Below are positions 6,007 to 41,776 of a stretch of 64,000 bases of DNA, piece by piece. The stretch spans positions 33,591 through 97,590 of the forward strand of contig JBAZUR010000001.1 of NCBI GenBank assembly GCA_041661305.1, in the 5' to 3' direction. The notes below the pieces were generated by a model. The model was not told the DNA's origin, made no database searches, and worked only from the letters and a program-made list of their open reading frames with translations. This DNA comes from Minisyncoccota bacterium. Its GTDB lineage: Bacteria > Patescibacteriota > Minisyncoccia > Phycocordibacterales > VMEP01. The first letter of the stretch is position 1. Each line of letters begins with the position of its first letter. Both the position numbers and the translations under genes were made by a program.

Positions 6007-6371
6007 GGCCTTGAACCGGACAGTCGCTCTAACTTTATTGTTGGGGAGGAAAGTCCGAACACTTACTGTCTAACCGTTCGGCGACAGTAGAAGGGTAGCG
6101 GGTAACGCCCGTCCGGAGCAATCCGAGAGGTGCGAGCAGTGACGTCGATGCCGAAAGGCTAGACCTCCCACGTGGAGGAATCCTATAGAAATATAGGGGT
6201 GAAACGGCTAAATCCTTACTTAAGTGCAAGGCCGTGCCATCTTTATGATGGAGTGCCGCTTGAGCCCGTAAGTAATTACGAGCCCAGATAAATGGCTGTC
6301 GCCCCGTGAGATAGGCGTCGAAAGACGCCGCCATCTCACGGGGTACAGAATTCGGCTTATAGGTTCAGGGT
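6007..6371 (+). ncRNA. rnpB: RNase P RNA (bacterial type)
   Basis: ACCGGACAGTCGC near the 5' end, GGGGAGGAAAGTCCGAACAC (P4 GGAAAGUCCG box) and 3' ACAGAATTCGGCTTATAGG (ACAGAAxCCGGCUUA box). P1 pairing ccttgaacc/ggttcaggg. Confidence 0.8.
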
Positions 6372-6376
6372 AAACA

Positions 6377-14035: not shown

Positions 14036-14464
14036 ATGCAAGATTCGCAAACTGTATCAGGAACAAAACCTGCCACCGGAAAGAAGGCCAAGCCAGCTTT
14101 CGGCAGGAAGAAGGTTACCCGCGTCGATCTTTTTTTCGACAAGGAAACCCCGGCTCCGTACCAGCGTCCGGCCGTCGCGTATTCGCCGGGTTTTACGGCG
14201 CGTTACATGATTCCGTGTCGTGTCGGGGAAAATGGCAGAATCAACGCCAACCTTTCCGAGCTTTGTGGCTTTCTCCGCAACAGCAATGTTTCGGTCATCG
14301 GCAAAAAGAAGGTGGTCGAGATCGAAGCGAAAAGGGGTCGGCACATGCGCCGAATGAAGCGCGAGGTCATTGACCCGGGCCCTGATTGCGAGGTCGTCGT
14401 CTTCACGAATATGACGACACCGCACTGTTACGCCCTGAAGTCACAGGTCGTGAGCGGCCTGTAG
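14036..14464 (+). CDS. Hypothetical protein, GC-rich (compositionally foreign)
   Basis: 142-aa ORF (start at ATG 14036 within ORF 13991..14464). Locally far more GC-rich than its surroundings, with a GC hairpin at 14486-14509 downstream. No recognisable family. Confidence 0.45.
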   Translation: MQDSQTVSGTKPATGKKAKPAFGRKKVTRVDLFFDKETPAPYQRPAVAYSPGFTARYMIPCRVGENGRINANLSELCGFLRNSNVSVIGKKKVVEIEAKRGRHMRRMKREVIDPGPDCEVVVFTNMTTPHCYALKSQVVSGL

Positions 14465-37626: not shown

Positions 37627-37950
37627 ATGGCGAGACGCAAAAAACTGGTTCATAAGAGTATTTGGTTTGAGAGGACAAAGGCGAAAGATGGCACTGGGCC
37701 AAGGGAGAAGGCCTTTGCTCATACTTGGGAAAAGGAGAACGTTCCTCGGCGACATTTCCCGTTTTCCAATTCTTGTTCGCGCCTTGAAATGCTCATGCGC
37801 GATGAAGAAAAGTTGATTCCCGTGTCTCAGGAGTCAGCGACGGCAGTTGCGACGATTGTCCAGTGGCTTGGGTCAAATTGCGGGTGGGTCTTTCTCGAGG
37901 CGGCATTGCATAATGCCGGATACCGCATTGTTCCATTGAAAGAGAAGTGA
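37627..37950 (+). CDS. Hypothetical protein
   Basis: 107 aa. Followed by the terminator hairpin aatcgcccca-tgt-ggggcgatttttt at 37971-37996. Confidence 0.45.
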   Translation: MARRKKLVHKSIWFERTKAKDGTGPREKAFAHTWEKENVPRRHFPFSNSCSRLEMLMRDEEKLIPVSQESATAVATIVQWLGSNCGWVFLEAALHNAGYRIVPLKEK

Positions 37951-38128: not shown

Positions 38129-39274
38129 TTATTTCTTTTTCGATTCGTCTAAGTAGGTGAGCGTCATTCTTTGTTCCTTTGGTTCAAAGAAAGTGATTTG
38201 GAAGTTGTAAGTCTTTCCAAGCTCTAATGCTTCACGAATTTTTTCTTCAGAACCAAATTCGGAAACATGAGCCAATCCCGCGACACCTTCTTCGATTGAG
38301 ACAAGCGCACCGTGTTTGTTGAACTTAATAACAACACCATTCACGATATCGCCTTTTTTGTATCTCTTCTCGATACCTTTCCATGGGTTTTCCTTGAGAG
38401 CCTTGATGGATAAGGAAATCTTTCCTTCTTTGATTTCGATAACCTTGACCTTTATCTTGTCTCCAACTCTAAACATTGAGCGTGGATCTTCTACGAGACC
38501 CCAATCAATTTCCGAGATATGAACAAGACCTTCGAGACCATCTTCAATTTTAATGAAGACGCCGAAGTCGACAATGCCTGTCACTTCGCCAAGAAGTTCG
38601 TCGCCAACCTCAAACTTGGAAAGGACGGCATCTCGTTCCTTGTGATCTTCTCCTTTTTCAGAAAAGATAAGTTTTCCTTCTTTAGGACTTGCCGAGATGA
38701 TGTAAACACCAAGTTTTGTTCCAACGAGTTTCTTTAACTCACGCAAGATTTTGTCTTTGTCGCCATCTTCAACGCGTGGATAGTGTTCAGGTTTTAGTTG
38801 AGAAGCAGGGAGGAATCCAACGATACCTTGCCATTCAATAATAAGACCGCCCTTGTTTGCCTCTTTGATTGGAAGCTCAAGAGTTGTCTTTGCTTTGATT
38901 GCGGCCTCAGCGTCGCTCCAAATAAGAGCTTGGCGAGCCTCCTTGAGAGACAACTCAATATATCCATCTTCGTTTACAGTTGAAACAACCTTCGCTTTAA
39001 CAGAATCACCGATATTTATTTTTTTGATAATTTCTCGGGCATTTATAAATTCACGTCCGAAAATAATACCTGTTCCAAACGGCTTCAAATCAACAAACAC
39101 CGCTGCACGCTCAATTCCAATGACTGGTCCTTCAATCAAGTCCTCGTCTTTTAACATCGCGCCACTGTGCTCAACAACCATCTTAAGCGCATTCGCTTTT
39201 TTTAACGCCTCCTCGTATTCGGCTAATTCCGAAAAATCAGCTAAATCAAATTTCTCTTTCTTTTTTGCAGTCAT
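38129..39274 (-). CDS. rpsA: 30S ribosomal protein S1 (short four-S1-domain form)
   Basis: Repeated S1 OB-fold units (GxV.G.V..I..FGVF..I..G..GL.HISE). Confidence 0.8.
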   Translation of the reverse strand: MTAKKKEKFDLADFSELAEYEEALKKANALKMVVEHSGAMLKDEDLIEGPVIGIERAAVFVDLKPFGTGIIFGREFINAREIIKKINIGDSVKAKVVSTVNEDGYIELSLKEARQALIWSDAEAAIKAKTTLELPIKEANKGGLIIEWQGIVGFLPASQLKPEHYPRVEDGDKDKILRELKKLVGTKLGVYIISASPKEGKLIFSEKGEDHKERDAVLSKFEVGDELLGEVTGIVDFGVFIKIEDGLEGLVHISEIDWGLVEDPRSMFRVGDKIKVKVIEIKEGKISLSIKALKENPWKGIEKRYKKGDIVNGVVIKFNKHGALVSIEEGVAGLAHVSEFGSEEKIREALELGKTYNFQITFFEPKEQRMTLTYLDESKKK

Positions 39275-39455
39275 AATAATTAATTAAAAAAATCCGCCAC
39301 CTTATGCAGGTGAAGCGGAATATCTCCCAGATTCGCTTGTGTACTACTAAAACTGGAGCCAAGCGAGGTTAACTGGGAAATCCGCTGTTAATGACGAAAA
39401 GGTAACACAAAGCGGATAAAAGTTCAATGTTTTGTGGTGCTAAAAATAAAAAAGT

Positions 39456-39477
39456 AAAAGCCCGCATTATGCGGGCT
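39456..39477 (-). terminator. Rho-independent terminator (minus strand) closing the GC-rich non-coding region
   Basis: aagcccgc-atta-tgcgggctt preceded by an A-run on the plus strand (U-run in the minus-strand transcript). Confidence 0.6.
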
Positions 39478-39990
39478 TCCCCCAATCCGGGTTTCGGTTT
39501 AGGGTCGTCTCGGTGGACGTCTGTACGGCGCGTGGCGCAGTTTCTGGCACATGGCTGTCTCCAATTTGTTTTGGATGTTGCTTAGGGTTTTATTCGAACC
39601 CCGAGTTTTAAAACTCCTTTCTCTTGTTGAAGATTTAATTGAGGATTTGGCCGGGGCAACACTTTCGTGTGGTCGCCCCGGCCTCCCCAAACGCGGGAGG
39701 TTTTCCCGCGAACCAGATTGTCCGCCGGTGGAGTTTAGCCCAATGTGGGAATTCTCTCCGAGCGAGGCGCGACATCTGGCACTACCCCAACTTTCGTTGG
39801 GTACTTCTGGCTTGCCGTTGCCCTGGTTTCAGGTCGTGCCGGCGGCCGCGCAGTTGTCGCTGATCGTCTTGCCCTGGTTGATTTCGTTGAATTTTAAACA
39901 ACACTCCTCACTTGCCGTTGCCGGCGGTCCGTGCATATACATGGCGATCTCCTCTAGAACTTCAGCCTTTGGTTTTTTAGGTTAGAAACC
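39478..39990 (-). ncRNA. GC-rich structured non-coding RNA candidate of unknown class
   Basis: About 500 nt with no credible ORF. GC far above flanks. Minus-sense hairpins with GNRA loops (cccaacGAAAgttggg at 39785-39800; ggccggggc...acacGAAAgtgt...gccccggcc at 39651-39685) and cctccc/gggagg stems. Ends at a terminator. Confidence 0.4.
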
Positions 39991-40108
39991 AAGGGTACCA
40001 AAACCGCCCCTTTTTGGAACGTGCTACTAGGGAAAAGGTTAGCACGGAACTGTATTATTGTCAACCATTAAAAACTGGCTCAAATAAAGGAGTTTTTAGG
40101 TAATTAGT

Positions 40109-40200
40109 GTTTAAATTTCGTGGAAAAGTGCTTTTTTTCTTTCTTCAAAAAAGAGAACAAATGTTAACCACGCAAGAATGCTCATAGATCCGGCAATTCC
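40109..40200 (-). pseudogene. Duplicated 3' fragment of the MFS transporter gene (C-terminal ~30 codons)
   Basis: 40109-40187 is near-identical to 40528-40605, the 3' end of CDS 40529..41776. It encodes ...IAGSMSILAWLTFVLFFEERKKALFHEI*. Confidence 0.6.
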
Positions 40201-40257
40201 ACTAGAAAAATTTACCTAAAAAACAGAACAGAAATAGAAGTAGTATGAAAACGGAAA

Positions 40258-40296
40258 GGGCAGGGTATCTTGTTTTTGATACTCCTGCCCTTTTGG
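40258..40296 (+). terminator. Rho-independent terminator-like hairpin
   Basis: gggcagggtatc-ttgtttttga-tactcctgccc followed by TTTTGG. Confidence 0.45.
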
Positions 40297-40528
40297 TGTG
40301 TAGGTCACCACCCTTAAAACATAGTCGGGTGGGATACGAACATCCTACCTTTGGCCTTAATCGCTGGGAGACCACCAGATTGCGAGCACTACCCGCGGCG
40401 TAAAGTGCGACTTTTGTATAATCCCGGGCGCCTTCCCGTGTTGCATCTTTAGCTATTCTAGCTTAATTCGTTATTTTTGTCAATAGCTAAAATACCCTTT
40501 AAACAAAAGGTATTTTGGTGGTTAGTAT

Positions 40529-41776
40529 TTAAACCTCGTGGAAAAGTGCTTTTTTTCTTTCTTCAAAAAAGAGAACAAATGTTAACCACGCAAGAATGCT
40601 CATGGCGCCAGCTATTAAAATCGGAAGATTAATTGATATTGTCGCGGCAAACCCGGCGAGTATTGGAGGGAGGGCTTGGGCAAGGGATTGAATTGATTGA
40701 TTTATTCCCAAAATTTCACCTTGTGACTCTTTGTCGGCCAAATTGGAAACAATAGCGTTATAGTTTGGCATTGTGAGTCCATTCCAAATTGAAATAAATG
40801 GAATGATTAGATAAATATAAATTGCTTGGTCCGGTAAAAGTAAAAAAGGGAAAGTTAAACCAAGGAGAAGGGTTGAAAAACGGAGAATTTTTACTGGCGC
40901 AAATTTAAAGGAAAGTGGGCGCACGATAAGCCCTTGAGTTAGTGCTATGCATAGTCCCATGTACGCAAAAAGATTTCCGAGGTTGCTTTGAGTAAATTCA
41001 AATTTGTTTATAAGAAACACTTGGAAAAATTGAGTGAAAAATGCAAATCCAAACGATAAAAGAAAAATGACAATAAAAATAACGCGGAGGTTTTCCATAT
41101 GAAAAGCTTTTTCTATGTTTTTGAATCCGGTCAGAATAGATATTTTTCTGTGGATCCTTGTTTTTAGTGTTTCTTCAAATTGGAAATAAATTAGTATGAT
41201 GTTTAAGAACGTAAGTATTGAGGAGAATAAAAATGGCGTTGCGTAATTAAAAGAGCTGTAGACTAATGGGTCAGATAGCTTCCCGCCTAAAAACGGACCG
41301 ATAATAAATCCTAAACCGAGCATCATTCCTACAAGTCCGAAATTACGTACTTTGGTGCGCTCATCGCTTATGTCGGCAATGGCACTATAAGCAACAGATA
41401 AACTTCCTCCAGAAAACCCAGAAAGAATACGCCCGAGGAATATAACAGGAAGGCTGGCCGTTATTATTCCAATAGCTGTGAGTAAGTACCCTGCGAGCAT
41501 TCCACCAAGGGAAGCTAGAAAAATTGGCTTTCGGCCGATTCTATCTGATAGTCCACCCAAAATAGGAGAACCAAAAAATTGGGCAATTGGATAGCACGCA
41601 AGAAGAAAACCCAAAATTATGTTACGAAAGGCGACGCCGTATGAAGGGGGGAGAATCCCCGTTTGGTGCATATCAAGAAGTAATGGGGCGAAAATTGGGA
41701 TGACAATACCAAAGCCGACCAAGTCGATAAAGACAATAGTGATTATGGGTAGTAGGGGGTTTTTTCTAGCGAGCAT
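40529..41776 (-). CDS. MFS transporter
   Basis: 12 TM helices and the GGLSDRIGRKP MFS motif A. Confidence 0.8.
   Translation of the reverse strand: MLARKNPLLPIITIVFIDLVGFGIVIPIFAPLLLDMHQTGILPPSYGVAFRNIILGFLLACYPIAQFFGSPILGGLSDRIGRKPIFLASLGGMLAGYLLTAIGIITASLPVIFLGRILSGFSGGSLSVAYSAIADISDERTKVRNFGLVGMMLGLGFIIGPFLGGKLSDPLVYSSFNYATPFLFSSILTFLNIILIYFQFEETLKTRIHRKISILTGFKNIEKAFHMENLRVIFIVIFLLSFGFAFFTQFFQVFLINKFEFTQSNLGNLFAYMGLCIALTQGLIVRPLSFKFAPVKILRFSTLLLGLTFPFLLLPDQAIYIYLIIPFISIWNGLTMPNYNAIVSNLADKESQGEILGINQSIQSLAQALPPILAGFAATISINLPILIAGAMSILAWLTFVLFFEERKKALFHEV

What the first reader, a model, noticed from the sequence alone, without database searches (positions are those of the whole stretch)
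39456..39990. About 500-nt GC-rich ORF-less region with GNRA-tetraloop hairpins: candidate large structured RNA on the minus strand
GC content jumps far above the surrounding DNA. Every ORF in the region is compositionally implausible. In minus sense the region contains cccaacGAAAgttggg, a 9-bp GC stem enclosing acacGAAAgtgt and a cctccc...gggagg helix. It ends in a hairpin-plus-U-run terminator (39456-39477) just upstream of rpsA. It is not tmRNA: there is no tRNA-like CCA 3' end and no tag ORF. It is not RNase P, which lies at 6007-6371. It may be a large ornate ncRNA (ROOL/GOLLD/OLE-like), an intron-like RNA, or a pseudogenised foreign gene.
Basis: partly seen in the sequence, partly recalled or inferred. 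Interest (0 to 1): 0.7.

Follow-up and report, generated by a model that had tools for sequence, protein, structure and literature searches.

The report
GC-rich structured transcript with two mini-genes
A roughly 580-base GC-rich transcription unit upstream of the ribosomal protein S1 gene in a Paceibacteria (candidate phyla radiation) genome folds into very stable hairpins but also encodes two tiny conserved peptides, and because it occurs only in a handful of near-identical genomes it is a lineage-specific oddity, not a new widespread RNA class.

Summary
Window 39446-40064 (minus strand) is a GC-rich island (0.53-0.57 against about 0.38-0.40) with a conserved promoter, a GAAA-capped hairpin, a 12-bp GC hairpin and an intrinsic terminator. 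It folds far better than shuffles (z -6.6 overall, -6.9 for the 284-nt core; a GC-rich coding control gives -1.2).

It matches no Rfam family and no tmRNA. It is not ORF-less. Relatives show two small ORFs with Shine-Dalgarno sites:
- ORF1 (37-46 aa) keeps its start, stop and frame through four in-frame indels. It has a conserved MxxH(G/S)PPAT N-terminus.
- ORF2 (14-17 aa, ...PYRRPPRRP*) varies in 7 of 9 codons, always synonymously.

The 275-nt spacer between them has non-triplet indels. Its pairs are 98.7% compatible across seven sequences, with three compensatory pairs, so it is structured RNA.

Sequence-level homologues were found in only seven other assemblies, all closely related to the window (about 70-90% nucleotide identity). 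One of them lies in a different genomic context.

Best reading: a lineage-restricted accessory transcript made of a leader-like sORF, a folded spacer and a constrained Arg/Pro micropeptide. Function is unknown. The large ornate ncRNA reading is only partly supported.

The parts
40036..40064 (-). Sigma-70-type promoter: -35 TTGACA (40064-40059), 17-nt spacer, extended -10 TGcTAACCT (40044-40036). The inferred transcription start is near 40029.
   Evidence: Read directly from the sequence. Both hexamers are invariant in all 5 sequences that cover them, while the spacer between them varies. The simple scan did not list it because the -10 is TAACCT.
39943..40029 (-). 5' UTR of about 85 nt with two small hairpins. 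It is the most conserved part of the unit. The Shine-Dalgarno GAGGAGA lies at 39954-39948.
   Evidence: Alignments A1 and A3; fold.
39829..39942 (-). sORF1, 37 aa: MYMHGPPATASEECCLKFNEINQGKTISDNCAAAGTT*. The N-terminus (MxxH[G/S]PPAT) is conserved, the middle is hypervariable, and the C-terminus (GK.II.KKLG..AGAT) is conserved in the relatives and divergent in the window. The stop codon sits inside the small hairpin CCUG-AAAC-CAGG (39833-39822).
   Evidence: Start, Shine-Dalgarno site and stop are conserved. Five distinct variants of 37, 37, 41, 42 and 46 aa differ by indels of 27, 15, 12 and 3 nt, all in frame. Gene callers predicted it in three other assemblies (P0122, P0124, P0128).
39553..39828 (-). 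GC-rich structured intercistronic spacer. H1 is CCCAAC-GAAA-GUUGGG (39801-39786). H2 is a long helix with inner hairpins (39779-39713). H3 is CGCGGGA/UCCCGCG (39710-39692). H4 is a composite hairpin, UGGGGA...UCCUCA enclosing GGCCGGGGCGAC/GUUGCCCCGGCC (39689-39640). H5 and H6 are small hairpins, with H6 at about 39603-39583.
   Evidence: z -6.9. RNAalifold consensus. On 7 sequences, 98.7% of cells are paired and 3 pairs show compensatory change, matched by 1 of 500 shuffles. Indels of 1, 2, 6, 8 and 14 nt fall in loops and are not triplets. In L121 the big hairpin gains a compensated A:U pair.
39499..39562 (-). Shine-Dalgarno GGAGA (39562-39558) plus sORF2 (39552-39499), 17 aa: MCQKLRHAPYRRPPRRP*. 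In relatives it reads MRRNEPYRRPPRRP*.
   Evidence: Seven of the 9 codons of PYRRPPRRP vary among 5 sequences and every variant is synonymous, including AGA/CGT for Arg. The only indel is 9 nt.
39446..39480 (-). Intrinsic terminator: stem GAAGCCCGCA/UGCGGGCUUU followed by a U run.
   Evidence: The stem is invariant and the loop varies in 6 sequences.

Best explanation
The region is an independently transcribed accessory transcript of about 583 nt (about 40029 to 39447, minus strand) in a Candidatus Paceibacterota genome. It is restricted to one narrow lineage. It is a hybrid, neither a pure non-coding RNA nor an ordinary gene.

Shown by comparison with relatives:
- There is a conserved promoter and a conserved terminator.
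- sORF1 keeps its frame, start, stop and N-terminal H(G/S)PP motif, while the rest of its peptide drifts freely.
- The 275-nt spacer evolves as a folded RNA. Its indels sit in loops, its pairs are kept, and a few changes are compensatory.
- sORF2 encodes a 14-17-aa Arg/Pro-rich peptide under strict purifying selection.

Inferred mechanism:
- sORF1 behaves like a leader or upstream ORF, where the act of translation matters more than the product. H-G-P-P and R-x-P-P belong to the class of translation-impeding motifs.
- The hairpin-rich spacer insulates or stabilises the RNA and sets access to the partly masked Shine-Dalgarno site of sORF2.
- sORF2's ...PYRRPPRRP peptide is the constrained product.
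- That peptide could act on the ribosome or on nucleic acid (it resembles proline-rich antimicrobial peptides), or it could act in cis during its own termination.

The unit is cargo of a hypervariable slot between a Lactamase_B_3 gene and rpsA. In other Paceibacteria this slot holds other GC-rich small-ORF cassettes.
For: - Organism: the S1 protein is 100% identical to a Candidatus Paceibacterota MAG protein.
- Transcription unit: promoter and terminator are conserved.
- sORF2: 7 of 9 codons vary and all variants are synonymous.
- sORF1: all four indels are in frame, the Shine-Dalgarno site, ATG and TGA are conserved, and the N-terminal H(G/S)PPAT is conserved. The same HGPP/CGPP N-terminus recurs in otherwise unrelated cassettes at the same locus in L064 and L002.
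- Spacer: z -6.9 against -1.2 for a coding control. Its indels are not triplets, 98.7% of cells are paired, there are 3 compensatory pairs, and every slid register falls to 37-48% paired.
- No Rfam, ARAGORN, Pfam or PHROG match.
- Narrow distribution: only L001, L065, L118, L121, L136, L137 and L138 carry it.
- Hypervariable slot with other cassettes.
- [RH]xPP occurs 3 times in 16,204 residues of the window's long ORFs, yet twice in the 54 residues of these sORFs.
- RxPP, HGPP and RSPP are reported as arrest-prone and depleted from bacterial proteomes (PMC12992588).
Against: - There is no expression or ribosome-profiling data, so the transcript ends are inferred from consensus elements.
- All homologues are close: 42 of 51 pairs never vary, so covariation support is thin.
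- The sORF1 peptide shows no purifying selection outside its N-terminus, and an open frame of about 40 codons in 60% GC DNA is not rare (my estimate is a probability of about 0.27).
- Its translation therefore rests on the Shine-Dalgarno and start conservation and on four in-frame indels.
- Constraining a ribosome footprint over the HGPP codons did not change the predicted accessibility of the sORF2 ribosome-binding site in three sequences.
- RRPP has x = Arg, which lies outside the residues reported as permissive (G, A, S, P, D) for RAPP-like arrest.
- No function can be read from context. Downstream lies rpsA in most copies, but a convergent bL28-like gene in L121.
Confidence: 0.62

Rival explanations
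1. It is a pure large structured non-coding RNA of a new ornate class, and the small ORFs are incidental.
For: Thermodynamic structure is extreme. The GAAA tetraloop hairpin is invariant, hairpin loops vary in length, and some pairs are compensatory. The region is a GC-rich island in an AT-rich genome. The 5' UTR and the sORF1 Pro codons are conserved at the nucleotide level even at third positions.
Against: The all-synonymous variation in sORF2 cannot be explained by RNA structure. Both ORFs have well-spaced Shine-Dalgarno sites. The sORF1 indels are all triplets, while the spacer indels are not. There is no Rfam hit. The element is absent from 78 other Paceibacteria rpsA loci even with a covariance model, so it lacks the breadth typical of functional ornate RNAs.
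Confidence: 0.1
2. It is a dual-function riboregulator of the RNAIII type. The folded 3' domain base-pairs with target mRNAs, and the 5' sORF encodes a peptide.
For: It has the same overall anatomy as known dual-function RNAs. It is an autonomous, highly structured transcript of about 0.5 kb with a small ORF near the 5' end. Invariant unpaired stretches lie between hairpins, for example AUCUUCAACAA and CCUCGCUCGG.
Against: No target complementarity was identified. Self-searches of the window gave only chance matches of 13-17 nt. There are two sORFs, not one. Nothing here tests base-pairing regulation.
Confidence: 0.12
3. It is a leader-peptide attenuator for rpsA. A ribosome pausing or terminating slowly on the Pro-rich sORF2 (...RRP-stop) modulates the terminator just downstream and hence read-through into the S1 gene.
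For: sORF2 ends 8-20 nt before the terminator stem, and rpsA follows on the same strand in the window, L001 and L065. The peptide sequence is under selection, as it is for arrest peptides. It ends in Pro-stop and contains PP.
Against: In L121 the downstream neighbour is a convergent bL28-like gene, not rpsA. In L118 another complete cassette lies in between. rpsA has its own conserved leader with its own terminator-like hairpin. In several copies a ribosome at the stop codon would not reach the core of the terminator stem; this is my estimate from spacing. The window's closest relatives outside the clade lack the element altogether.
Confidence: 0.08
4. It is a decaying foreign protein-coding gene. 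GC-rich horizontally acquired DNA has accumulated stops and frameshifts.
For: The window holds other GC-rich accessory coding genes, such as 14037-14464. In the window sORF1, the spacer and sORF2 happen to lie in one frame interrupted by a single TGA. A 144-aa antisense ORF exists.
Against: The single-frame arrangement is not kept in L001 or L065. Substitutions in the spacer show no third-position bias (direct reading). The antisense ORF has only itself as a hit among 5.8 billion proteins and no Pfam or PHROG family. Decay would not preserve helices, a promoter, two Shine-Dalgarno sites and a terminator.
Confidence: 0.05

Closest known systems
Dual-function (coding) small RNAs such as Staphylococcus RNAIII/delta-hemolysin, SgrS/SgrT and SR1/SR1P (named from my own knowledge)
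   Same: An autonomous transcript with its own promoter and terminator. It is about 0.5 kb long, has many stable hairpins, and has a small ORF with a Shine-Dalgarno site near the 5' end.
   Different: No sequence or Rfam similarity. It has two sORFs. No base-pairing targets are known. It is found only in one Paceibacteria lineage.
Large ornate bacterial ncRNAs (OLE, GOLLD, ROOL, raiA, HEARO)
   Same: A size of several hundred nucleotides, GC enrichment in an intergenic region of an AT-rich genome, GNRA-capped hairpins, and a strong folding signal.
   Different: No covariance-model match even at E <= 10. There are no multi-way junctions or pseudoknots with covariation. The distribution is very narrow. 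It contains sORFs with coding signatures.
RAPP-like and Pro-rich translation arrest peptides (SecM, ApdA/ApdP/ApcA; the RxPP, HGPP and RSPP motifs; PMC12992588, PMC10951233)
   Same: Small ORFs carrying H-G-P-P (sORF1) and R-R-P-P (sORF2). The motif is conserved while the rest of sORF1 drifts. Such motifs are otherwise nearly absent from this window's proteins.
   Different: The motif in sORF1 is at residues 4-7, not near the C-terminus. In sORF2 x = Arg, which is not a reported permissive residue. No regulated gene lies immediately downstream. Stalling has not been tested.
Proline-rich antimicrobial peptides of animals (oncocin, Bac7, apidaecin; PMC4797290, PMC7544508)
   Same: sORF2's ...PYRRPPRRP is short, cationic and Pro/Arg-rich, with a Tyr and an RPP(R/H) core. 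This resembles the ribosome-tunnel-binding cores of these peptides, whose sequences I recalled from memory.
   Different: It is encoded by a bacterium, with no signal or pro-region. There is no evidence of export or of ribosome binding. The resemblance is compositional and does not indicate homology.
tmRNA
   Same: A structured, GC-rich RNA of several hundred nucleotides carrying a short ORF.
   Different: It has no tRNA-like domain and no ARAGORN or Rfam hit. The ORFs have Shine-Dalgarno sites and ATG starts. The peptide ends do not resemble degradation tags.

Membership tests
Rfam large structured RNAs (OLE, GOLLD, ROOL, raiA, HEARO, group I/II introns, 6S, T-box) | A match to the family covariance model at or near its gathering score. 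| tested here: not met
   cmscan of the whole window at gathering thresholds finds nothing in 39200-40600. A permissive scan at E <= 10 lists only chance-level hits of 14-22 bits to unrelated small families.
tmRNA | A tRNA-like acceptor/T-arm domain with a CCA end, plus a tag reading frame without a Shine-Dalgarno site or start codon. | tested here: not met
   ARAGORN finds no tmRNA in the window. No Rfam tmRNA clan hit. The ORFs have Shine-Dalgarno sites and ATG starts.
Structured non-coding RNA (generic) | Base pairs maintained by compensatory substitutions across diverged homologues. | tested here: inconclusive
   Of 51 pairs, 98.7% of cells are paired and 3 pairs are compensatory, matched by 1 of 500 shuffles. 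Slid registers give 37-48% paired. However, 42 pairs never vary because all 7 sequences are close relatives.
Protein-coding small ORF | [quoted passage not shown] | tested here: met
   sORF2: 7 variable codons, all synonymous, and a 9-nt indel. sORF1: conserved Shine-Dalgarno site, ATG and TGA, with indels of 27, 15, 12 and 3 nt. Outside the N-terminus, sORF1 shows many non-synonymous changes.
RAPP-like arrest peptides | A core of R-(A/G/S/P/D)-P-P, RAPG or RAGP near the C-terminus of a small ORF. | tested here: not met
   sORF1 has H-G-P-P or H-S-P-P at residues 4-7. sORF2 has R-R-P-P four residues from its end. Neither fits the reported permissive core. HGPP is reported separately as arrest-prone (PMC12992588).
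RAPP-like arrest peptides | Located directly upstream of, and co-directional with, a gene whose ribosome-binding site or terminator the stalled ribosome controls. | tested here: inconclusive
   sORF1 lies about 275 nt upstream of sORF2, and an in-silico footprint constraint did not open the sORF2 ribosome-binding site. sORF2 is followed by a terminator and by variable neighbours.
RAPP-like arrest peptides | Demonstrated ribosome stalling (toeprint, or accumulation of peptidyl-tRNA). | not testable with these tools
   This needs in vitro translation or ribosome profiling.
Dual-function sRNA | A trans-acting base-pairing activity in addition to a translated sORF. | not testable with these tools
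   No convincing complementarity was found within the 64-kb window. The genome-wide target space was not available.
Mobile or phage-derived element | Presence in viral contigs or plasmids, flanking repeats, or multiple copies. | tested here: not met
   Four scans of viral contigs gave no true match. The window holds a single copy. One homologue (L121) does sit in a different genomic context.

The most novel reading that the evidence does not exclude
The unit is a new kind of translation-sensing riboregulatory module in an episymbiotic CPR bacterium. In this reading a proline-stall leader ORF (H-G/S-P-P) and a large folded RNA domain together gate production of a 14-17-aa Arg/Pro peptide. That peptide would bind the ribosomal exit tunnel like an animal proline-rich antimicrobial peptide, acting either on the cell's own ribosomes or on those of its host. 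It would be the first bacterially encoded, unmodified peptide of this kind.
Probability: 0.08. Interest if true: 0.8.

Novelty: new variant of a known kind. Interest (0 to 1): 0.4.

Why it matters
It is a worked example of why long GC-rich intergenic regions in AT-rich genomes cannot be sorted simply into structured RNA or coding sequence. Here the two signals sit side by side in one transcript. If the inferred parts are real, the unit adds to the very small set of small-ORF/RNA hybrids known outside model bacteria. It also places a strictly conserved Pro/Arg micropeptide, and motifs that most proteomes avoid, in a candidate phyla radiation genome. In such genomes almost nothing is known about post-transcriptional control or about small effectors used in symbiosis. 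The element's restriction to one species-level clade limits its general importance.

Tried and rejected
1. Known RNA families: Rfam at gathering and at permissive thresholds, and ARAGORN, gave nothing.

2. Synteny search: 80 Paceibacteria loci around rpsA were searched with nhmmer and with a 151-position covariance model. Only the relatives with 96-97% identical S1 carry the element. The GC-rich patches upstream of rpsA in other genomes are unrelated cassettes.

3. Metagenome scan with back-translated PYRRPPRRP*: 52 hits, of which 50 are chance matches in high-GC contigs and 2 are true homologues.

4. Viral contigs: two nucleotide motifs and both back-translated peptide motifs gave no true hit.

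5. Long ORFs: the 144-aa antisense ORF and the 109-codon open frame after the sORF1 stop codon have no Pfam or PHROG hit. The antisense ORF has no homologue.

6. sORF1 family searches by profile against 5.8 and 1.8 billion proteins found only 5-6 tiny relatives.

7. The idea that a ribosome stalled on HGPP opens the sORF2 ribosome-binding site is not supported by constrained folding.

8. The idea that Pro-rich micro-ORFs are a general feature upstream of rpsA was rejected. Only this element and one other locus (L082, MPRPHPP*) have them.

9. Selenocysteine or read-through at the sORF1 TGA was rejected. A 1-nt indel directly after the stop in L001 and L137 breaks the frame relation.

10. A diversity-generating retroelement target was rejected from direct reading. 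The variation includes indels, and no repeat copy or reverse transcriptase lies nearby.

Full report

Yes, in most respects.
- Read on the minus strand, the stretch 39446-40064 is a GC island. GC in 200-nt windows is 0.53-0.565, against 0.36-0.40 on both sides. The window mean is 0.404.
  - CCCAAC-GAAA-GUUGGG at 39801-39786.
  - The 12-pair stem GGCCGGGGCGAC/GUUGCCCCGGCC at 39683-39649.
  - The CCUCCC/GGGAGG complementarity.
  - A terminator at 39480-39456 followed by a T run.
- The downstream ORF is an S1-domain protein. It is 100% identical to a protein of a Candidatus Paceibacterota metagenome-assembled genome.
- RNase P lies at 6008-6375.

The folding signal is far beyond chance.
- The whole unit folds at -221.5 kcal/mol, against -179.4 +/- 6.4 for dinucleotide shuffles (z -6.6).
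- The 284-nt core gives z -6.9.
- Its antisense gives -4.8.
- A GC-rich protein-coding stretch of the same length from the same window gives -1.2.
- GC content alone therefore does not explain the signal.

**2. Known families**

- Rfam 15 gives no hit at gathering thresholds, and only chance-level hits at E <= 10.
- ARAGORN finds no tmRNA.
- The longest ORF, 144 aa on the plus strand, has no Pfam or PHROG family. Its only match among 5.8 billion proteins is itself. It is not kept in frame in relatives.
- I found no evidence for a frameshifted protein gene.

**3. Relatives**

- I fetched 80 Paceibacteria loci around S1 homologues. Sequence search found the element only in L001 and L065, whose S1 is 96-97% identical.
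- A metagenome scan for DNA able to encode PYRRPPRRP-stop gave 52 hits. Fifty are chance matches in high-GC contigs. L118 and L121 are true partial copies.
- Protein searches with the first small ORF led to three further short contigs: L136, L137 and L138.
- A covariance model of the core (151 positions) finds these seven and nothing else in 700 kb of related loci.
- Scans of viral contigs gave no true match.
- The element is single-copy in the window.
- It is therefore confined to a narrow clade. The nucleotide identities measured are 81% mean column identity among the window, L001 and L065, and 71-91% for L121 against the window and the two relatives.
- In most copies it lies between an MFS transporter gene and rpsA.
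- In L118 a second, unrelated small-ORF cassette lies between it and rpsA.
- In L121 it is followed by a convergent bL28-like gene and an M50-peptidase-like gene. Neither has a counterpart in the window.

**4. Anatomy from the alignments**

(a) Promoter.
- The -35 TTGACA (40064-40059) and the extended -10 TGcTAACCT (40044-40036) are invariant.
- The 17-nt spacer between them varies.

(b) 5' UTR.
- It is about 85 nt long and is the most conserved segment.

(c) sORF1 (39942-39829).
- A Shine-Dalgarno GGAG lies 6 nt before the ATG.
- Five distinct versions are 37, 37, 41, 42 and 46 aa long.
- They share MxxH(G/S)PPAT at the N-terminus. The four relatives also share GK.II.KKLG..AGAT* at the C-terminus, where the window's copy is divergent.
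- The middle is hypervariable. Its indels are 27, 15, 12 and 3 nt, all in frame.
- Outside the N-terminus, non-synonymous changes are frequent.

(d) The 275-nt spacer.
- Its indels are 1, 2, 3, 6, 8 and 14 nt, and they fall in hairpin loops.
- Substitutions show no third-position bias.
- RNAalifold and the covariance model agree on these helices:
  - H1, the GAAA hairpin.
  - H2, a long helix with nested hairpins.
  - H3, CGCGGGA/UCCCGCG.
  - H4, the composite hairpin that encloses the big stem.
  - Two small 3' hairpins.
- On seven sequences, 98.7% of pair cells are standard pairs and three pairs show compensatory change. One of 500 shuffles reaches this.
- Every slid register drops to 37-48% paired. 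However, 42 of 51 pairs never vary.
- In L121 the big hairpin gained one extra compensated pair.

(e) sORF2 (39552-39499).
- It has the same GGAG-6 nt-ATG arrangement.
- It encodes MCQKLRHAPYRRPPRRP* in the window and MRRNEPYRRPPRRP* elsewhere.
- Within PYRRPPRRP, seven of nine codons vary among five sequences.
- Every variant is synonymous, including AGA against CGT for arginine.
- This is the signature of a translated peptide whose sequence matters.

(f) Terminator.
- The stem is invariant and the loop varies.

**5. What it most likely is**

Shown:
- It is an autonomous unit.
- It combines two small ORFs carrying coding signatures with a folded RNA domain between them.

Inferred:
- sORF1 behaves like a leader ORF. 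The frame and a short motif are kept while the rest drifts.
- sORF2 is the constrained product.
- The spacer stabilises or insulates the RNA and may gate sORF2 translation.

Both sORFs carry motifs of the [R/H]-x-P-P type.
- Such motifs occur only three times in the 16,204 residues of the window's long ORFs, and never with a small x.
- The literature reports RxPP (x = G, A, S, P, D), HGPP and RSPP as translation-impeding, and as strongly depleted from bacterial proteomes (PMC12992588).
- HGPP or CGPP also begins unrelated small ORFs at the same locus in L064 and L002.

These points fit the idea that sORF1 acts through a translation pause. It remains inference, for three reasons.
- The motif is N-terminal.
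- sORF2's RRPP lies outside the reported permissive set.
- A constrained-folding test of coupling between a stalled ribosome on sORF1 and the sORF2 ribosome-binding site was negative.

The sORF2 peptide resembles animal proline-rich antimicrobial peptides only in composition.

**6. Rivals**

- A pure ornate ncRNA is contradicted by the sORF2 substitution pattern and by the narrow distribution.
- An rpsA attenuator is contradicted by the L121 and L118 contexts, and by rpsA having its own conserved leader.
- A decaying foreign gene finds no homologue, and would not preserve helices, Shine-Dalgarno sites, a promoter and a terminator.
- A dual-function riboregulator of the RNAIII type remains possible and cannot be tested here.

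**7. Context**

- The slot between the Lactamase_B_3 gene and rpsA is hypervariable across Paceibacteria.
- Many genomes carry different GC-rich cassettes there, each with its own promoter, Shine-Dalgarno site, small ORF and terminator. Some are tandemly duplicated.
- The element is one such cargo. It is unusual for its long structured spacer and its second, strictly conserved micro-ORF.

**8. Verdict**

- The interpretation as a large ornate ncRNA is only partly right.
- The element belongs to no known family. It is best described as a new, lineage-restricted variant of the class of structured transcripts that carry small ORFs.
- Interest is moderate. The coding and structural signals are clean and the Pro-rich motifs are intriguing. 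The distribution is tiny and the function is unknown.

Noticed in passing
window 40213-40509 (minus strand), with repeats at 40092-40212 and 40510-40630: There is a second candidate small transcription unit directly upstream of the element. It has a near-consensus promoter (TTGACA-17-TAGAAT, 40483-40455), a GC-rich body of about 190 nt (z -2.8) and a terminator-like hairpin (40299-40251). It may encode MQHGKAPGIIQKSHFTPRVVLAIWWSPSD with almost no leader. It is flanked by 121-nt direct repeats (85% identical) that duplicate the 3' end of the MFS transporter gene. It is absent from L136, where the MFS stop is followed directly by the element's promoter, so it looks like a recent insertion. There is no Rfam hit, and no homologue in the 80 loci.
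   Followed up: partly
window about 39290-39405 (minus strand); the corresponding 100-120 nt before rpsA in L037, L053, L055, L068, L077, L082 and L083: There is a conserved structured leader immediately upstream of the S1 gene. An outer helix (CCCAG/CUGGG in the window, UCUGG/CCAGA and variants elsewhere) encloses a GUAAYCC-like motif and a variable hairpin. A terminator-like hairpin with a U run follows, just before the start codon. In the window, the 3' strand of the long helix overlaps the terminator stem, which suggests an antiterminator/terminator switch. Five of 7 outer-helix pairs show compensatory changes in 8 genomes. There is no Rfam match. It is a candidate S1 autoregulatory attenuator.
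   Followed up: partly
L001-L083, the 0.3-1.5 kb upstream of rpsA: The slot between a Lactamase_B_3 gene and rpsA is a hypervariable site in Paceibacteria. It carries unrelated inserts that are 0.1-0.25 higher in GC than the genome. These include small-ORF cassettes with their own promoter and terminator, two of them tandem with a duplicated promoter in L083. There is also a membrane protein (L068), an exonuclease-like gene (L055), and in L011 a 36-aa ORF followed by about 380 nt of GC-rich hairpins. Contigs often break here (L002, L081, L082).
   Followed up: partly
L082 180-215: There is a 7-codon micro-ORF, MPRPHPP*. Its ribosome-binding region, GGAGGTCGCCATG, is almost identical to that of the window's sORF1 (GGAGATCGCCATG) and similar to that of sORF2. 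It lies upstream of rpsA in the nearest relative outside the clade (S1 77% identical). It may be a diverged remnant of the same element. The contig begins with long poly-G and poly-C runs that look like an assembly artefact.
   Followed up: no
window 37627-37950 (+): A GC-enriched 107-aa ORF sits between the convergent rpsA and peptidyl-tRNA hydrolase genes. It has no Pfam or PHROG family. A similar coding sequence follows rpsA in L118. The more distant relative L083 has pth directly after rpsA.
   Followed up: no
window 14037-14464 (+): Another GC-rich island (0.54) lies between tRNA-Arg and tRNA-Phe. It is an ordinary-looking gene of about 142 aa with a Shine-Dalgarno site and a terminator. 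Its function is unknown and it shows no excess RNA structure (z -1.2). This shows that GC-rich islands in this genome are often accessory coding DNA.
   Followed up: partly
window 6008-6375 (+): The RNase P RNA scores only 104.3 bits against a gathering score of 100, so it is a divergent class A RNase P, as is common in candidate phyla radiation genomes.
   Followed up: no
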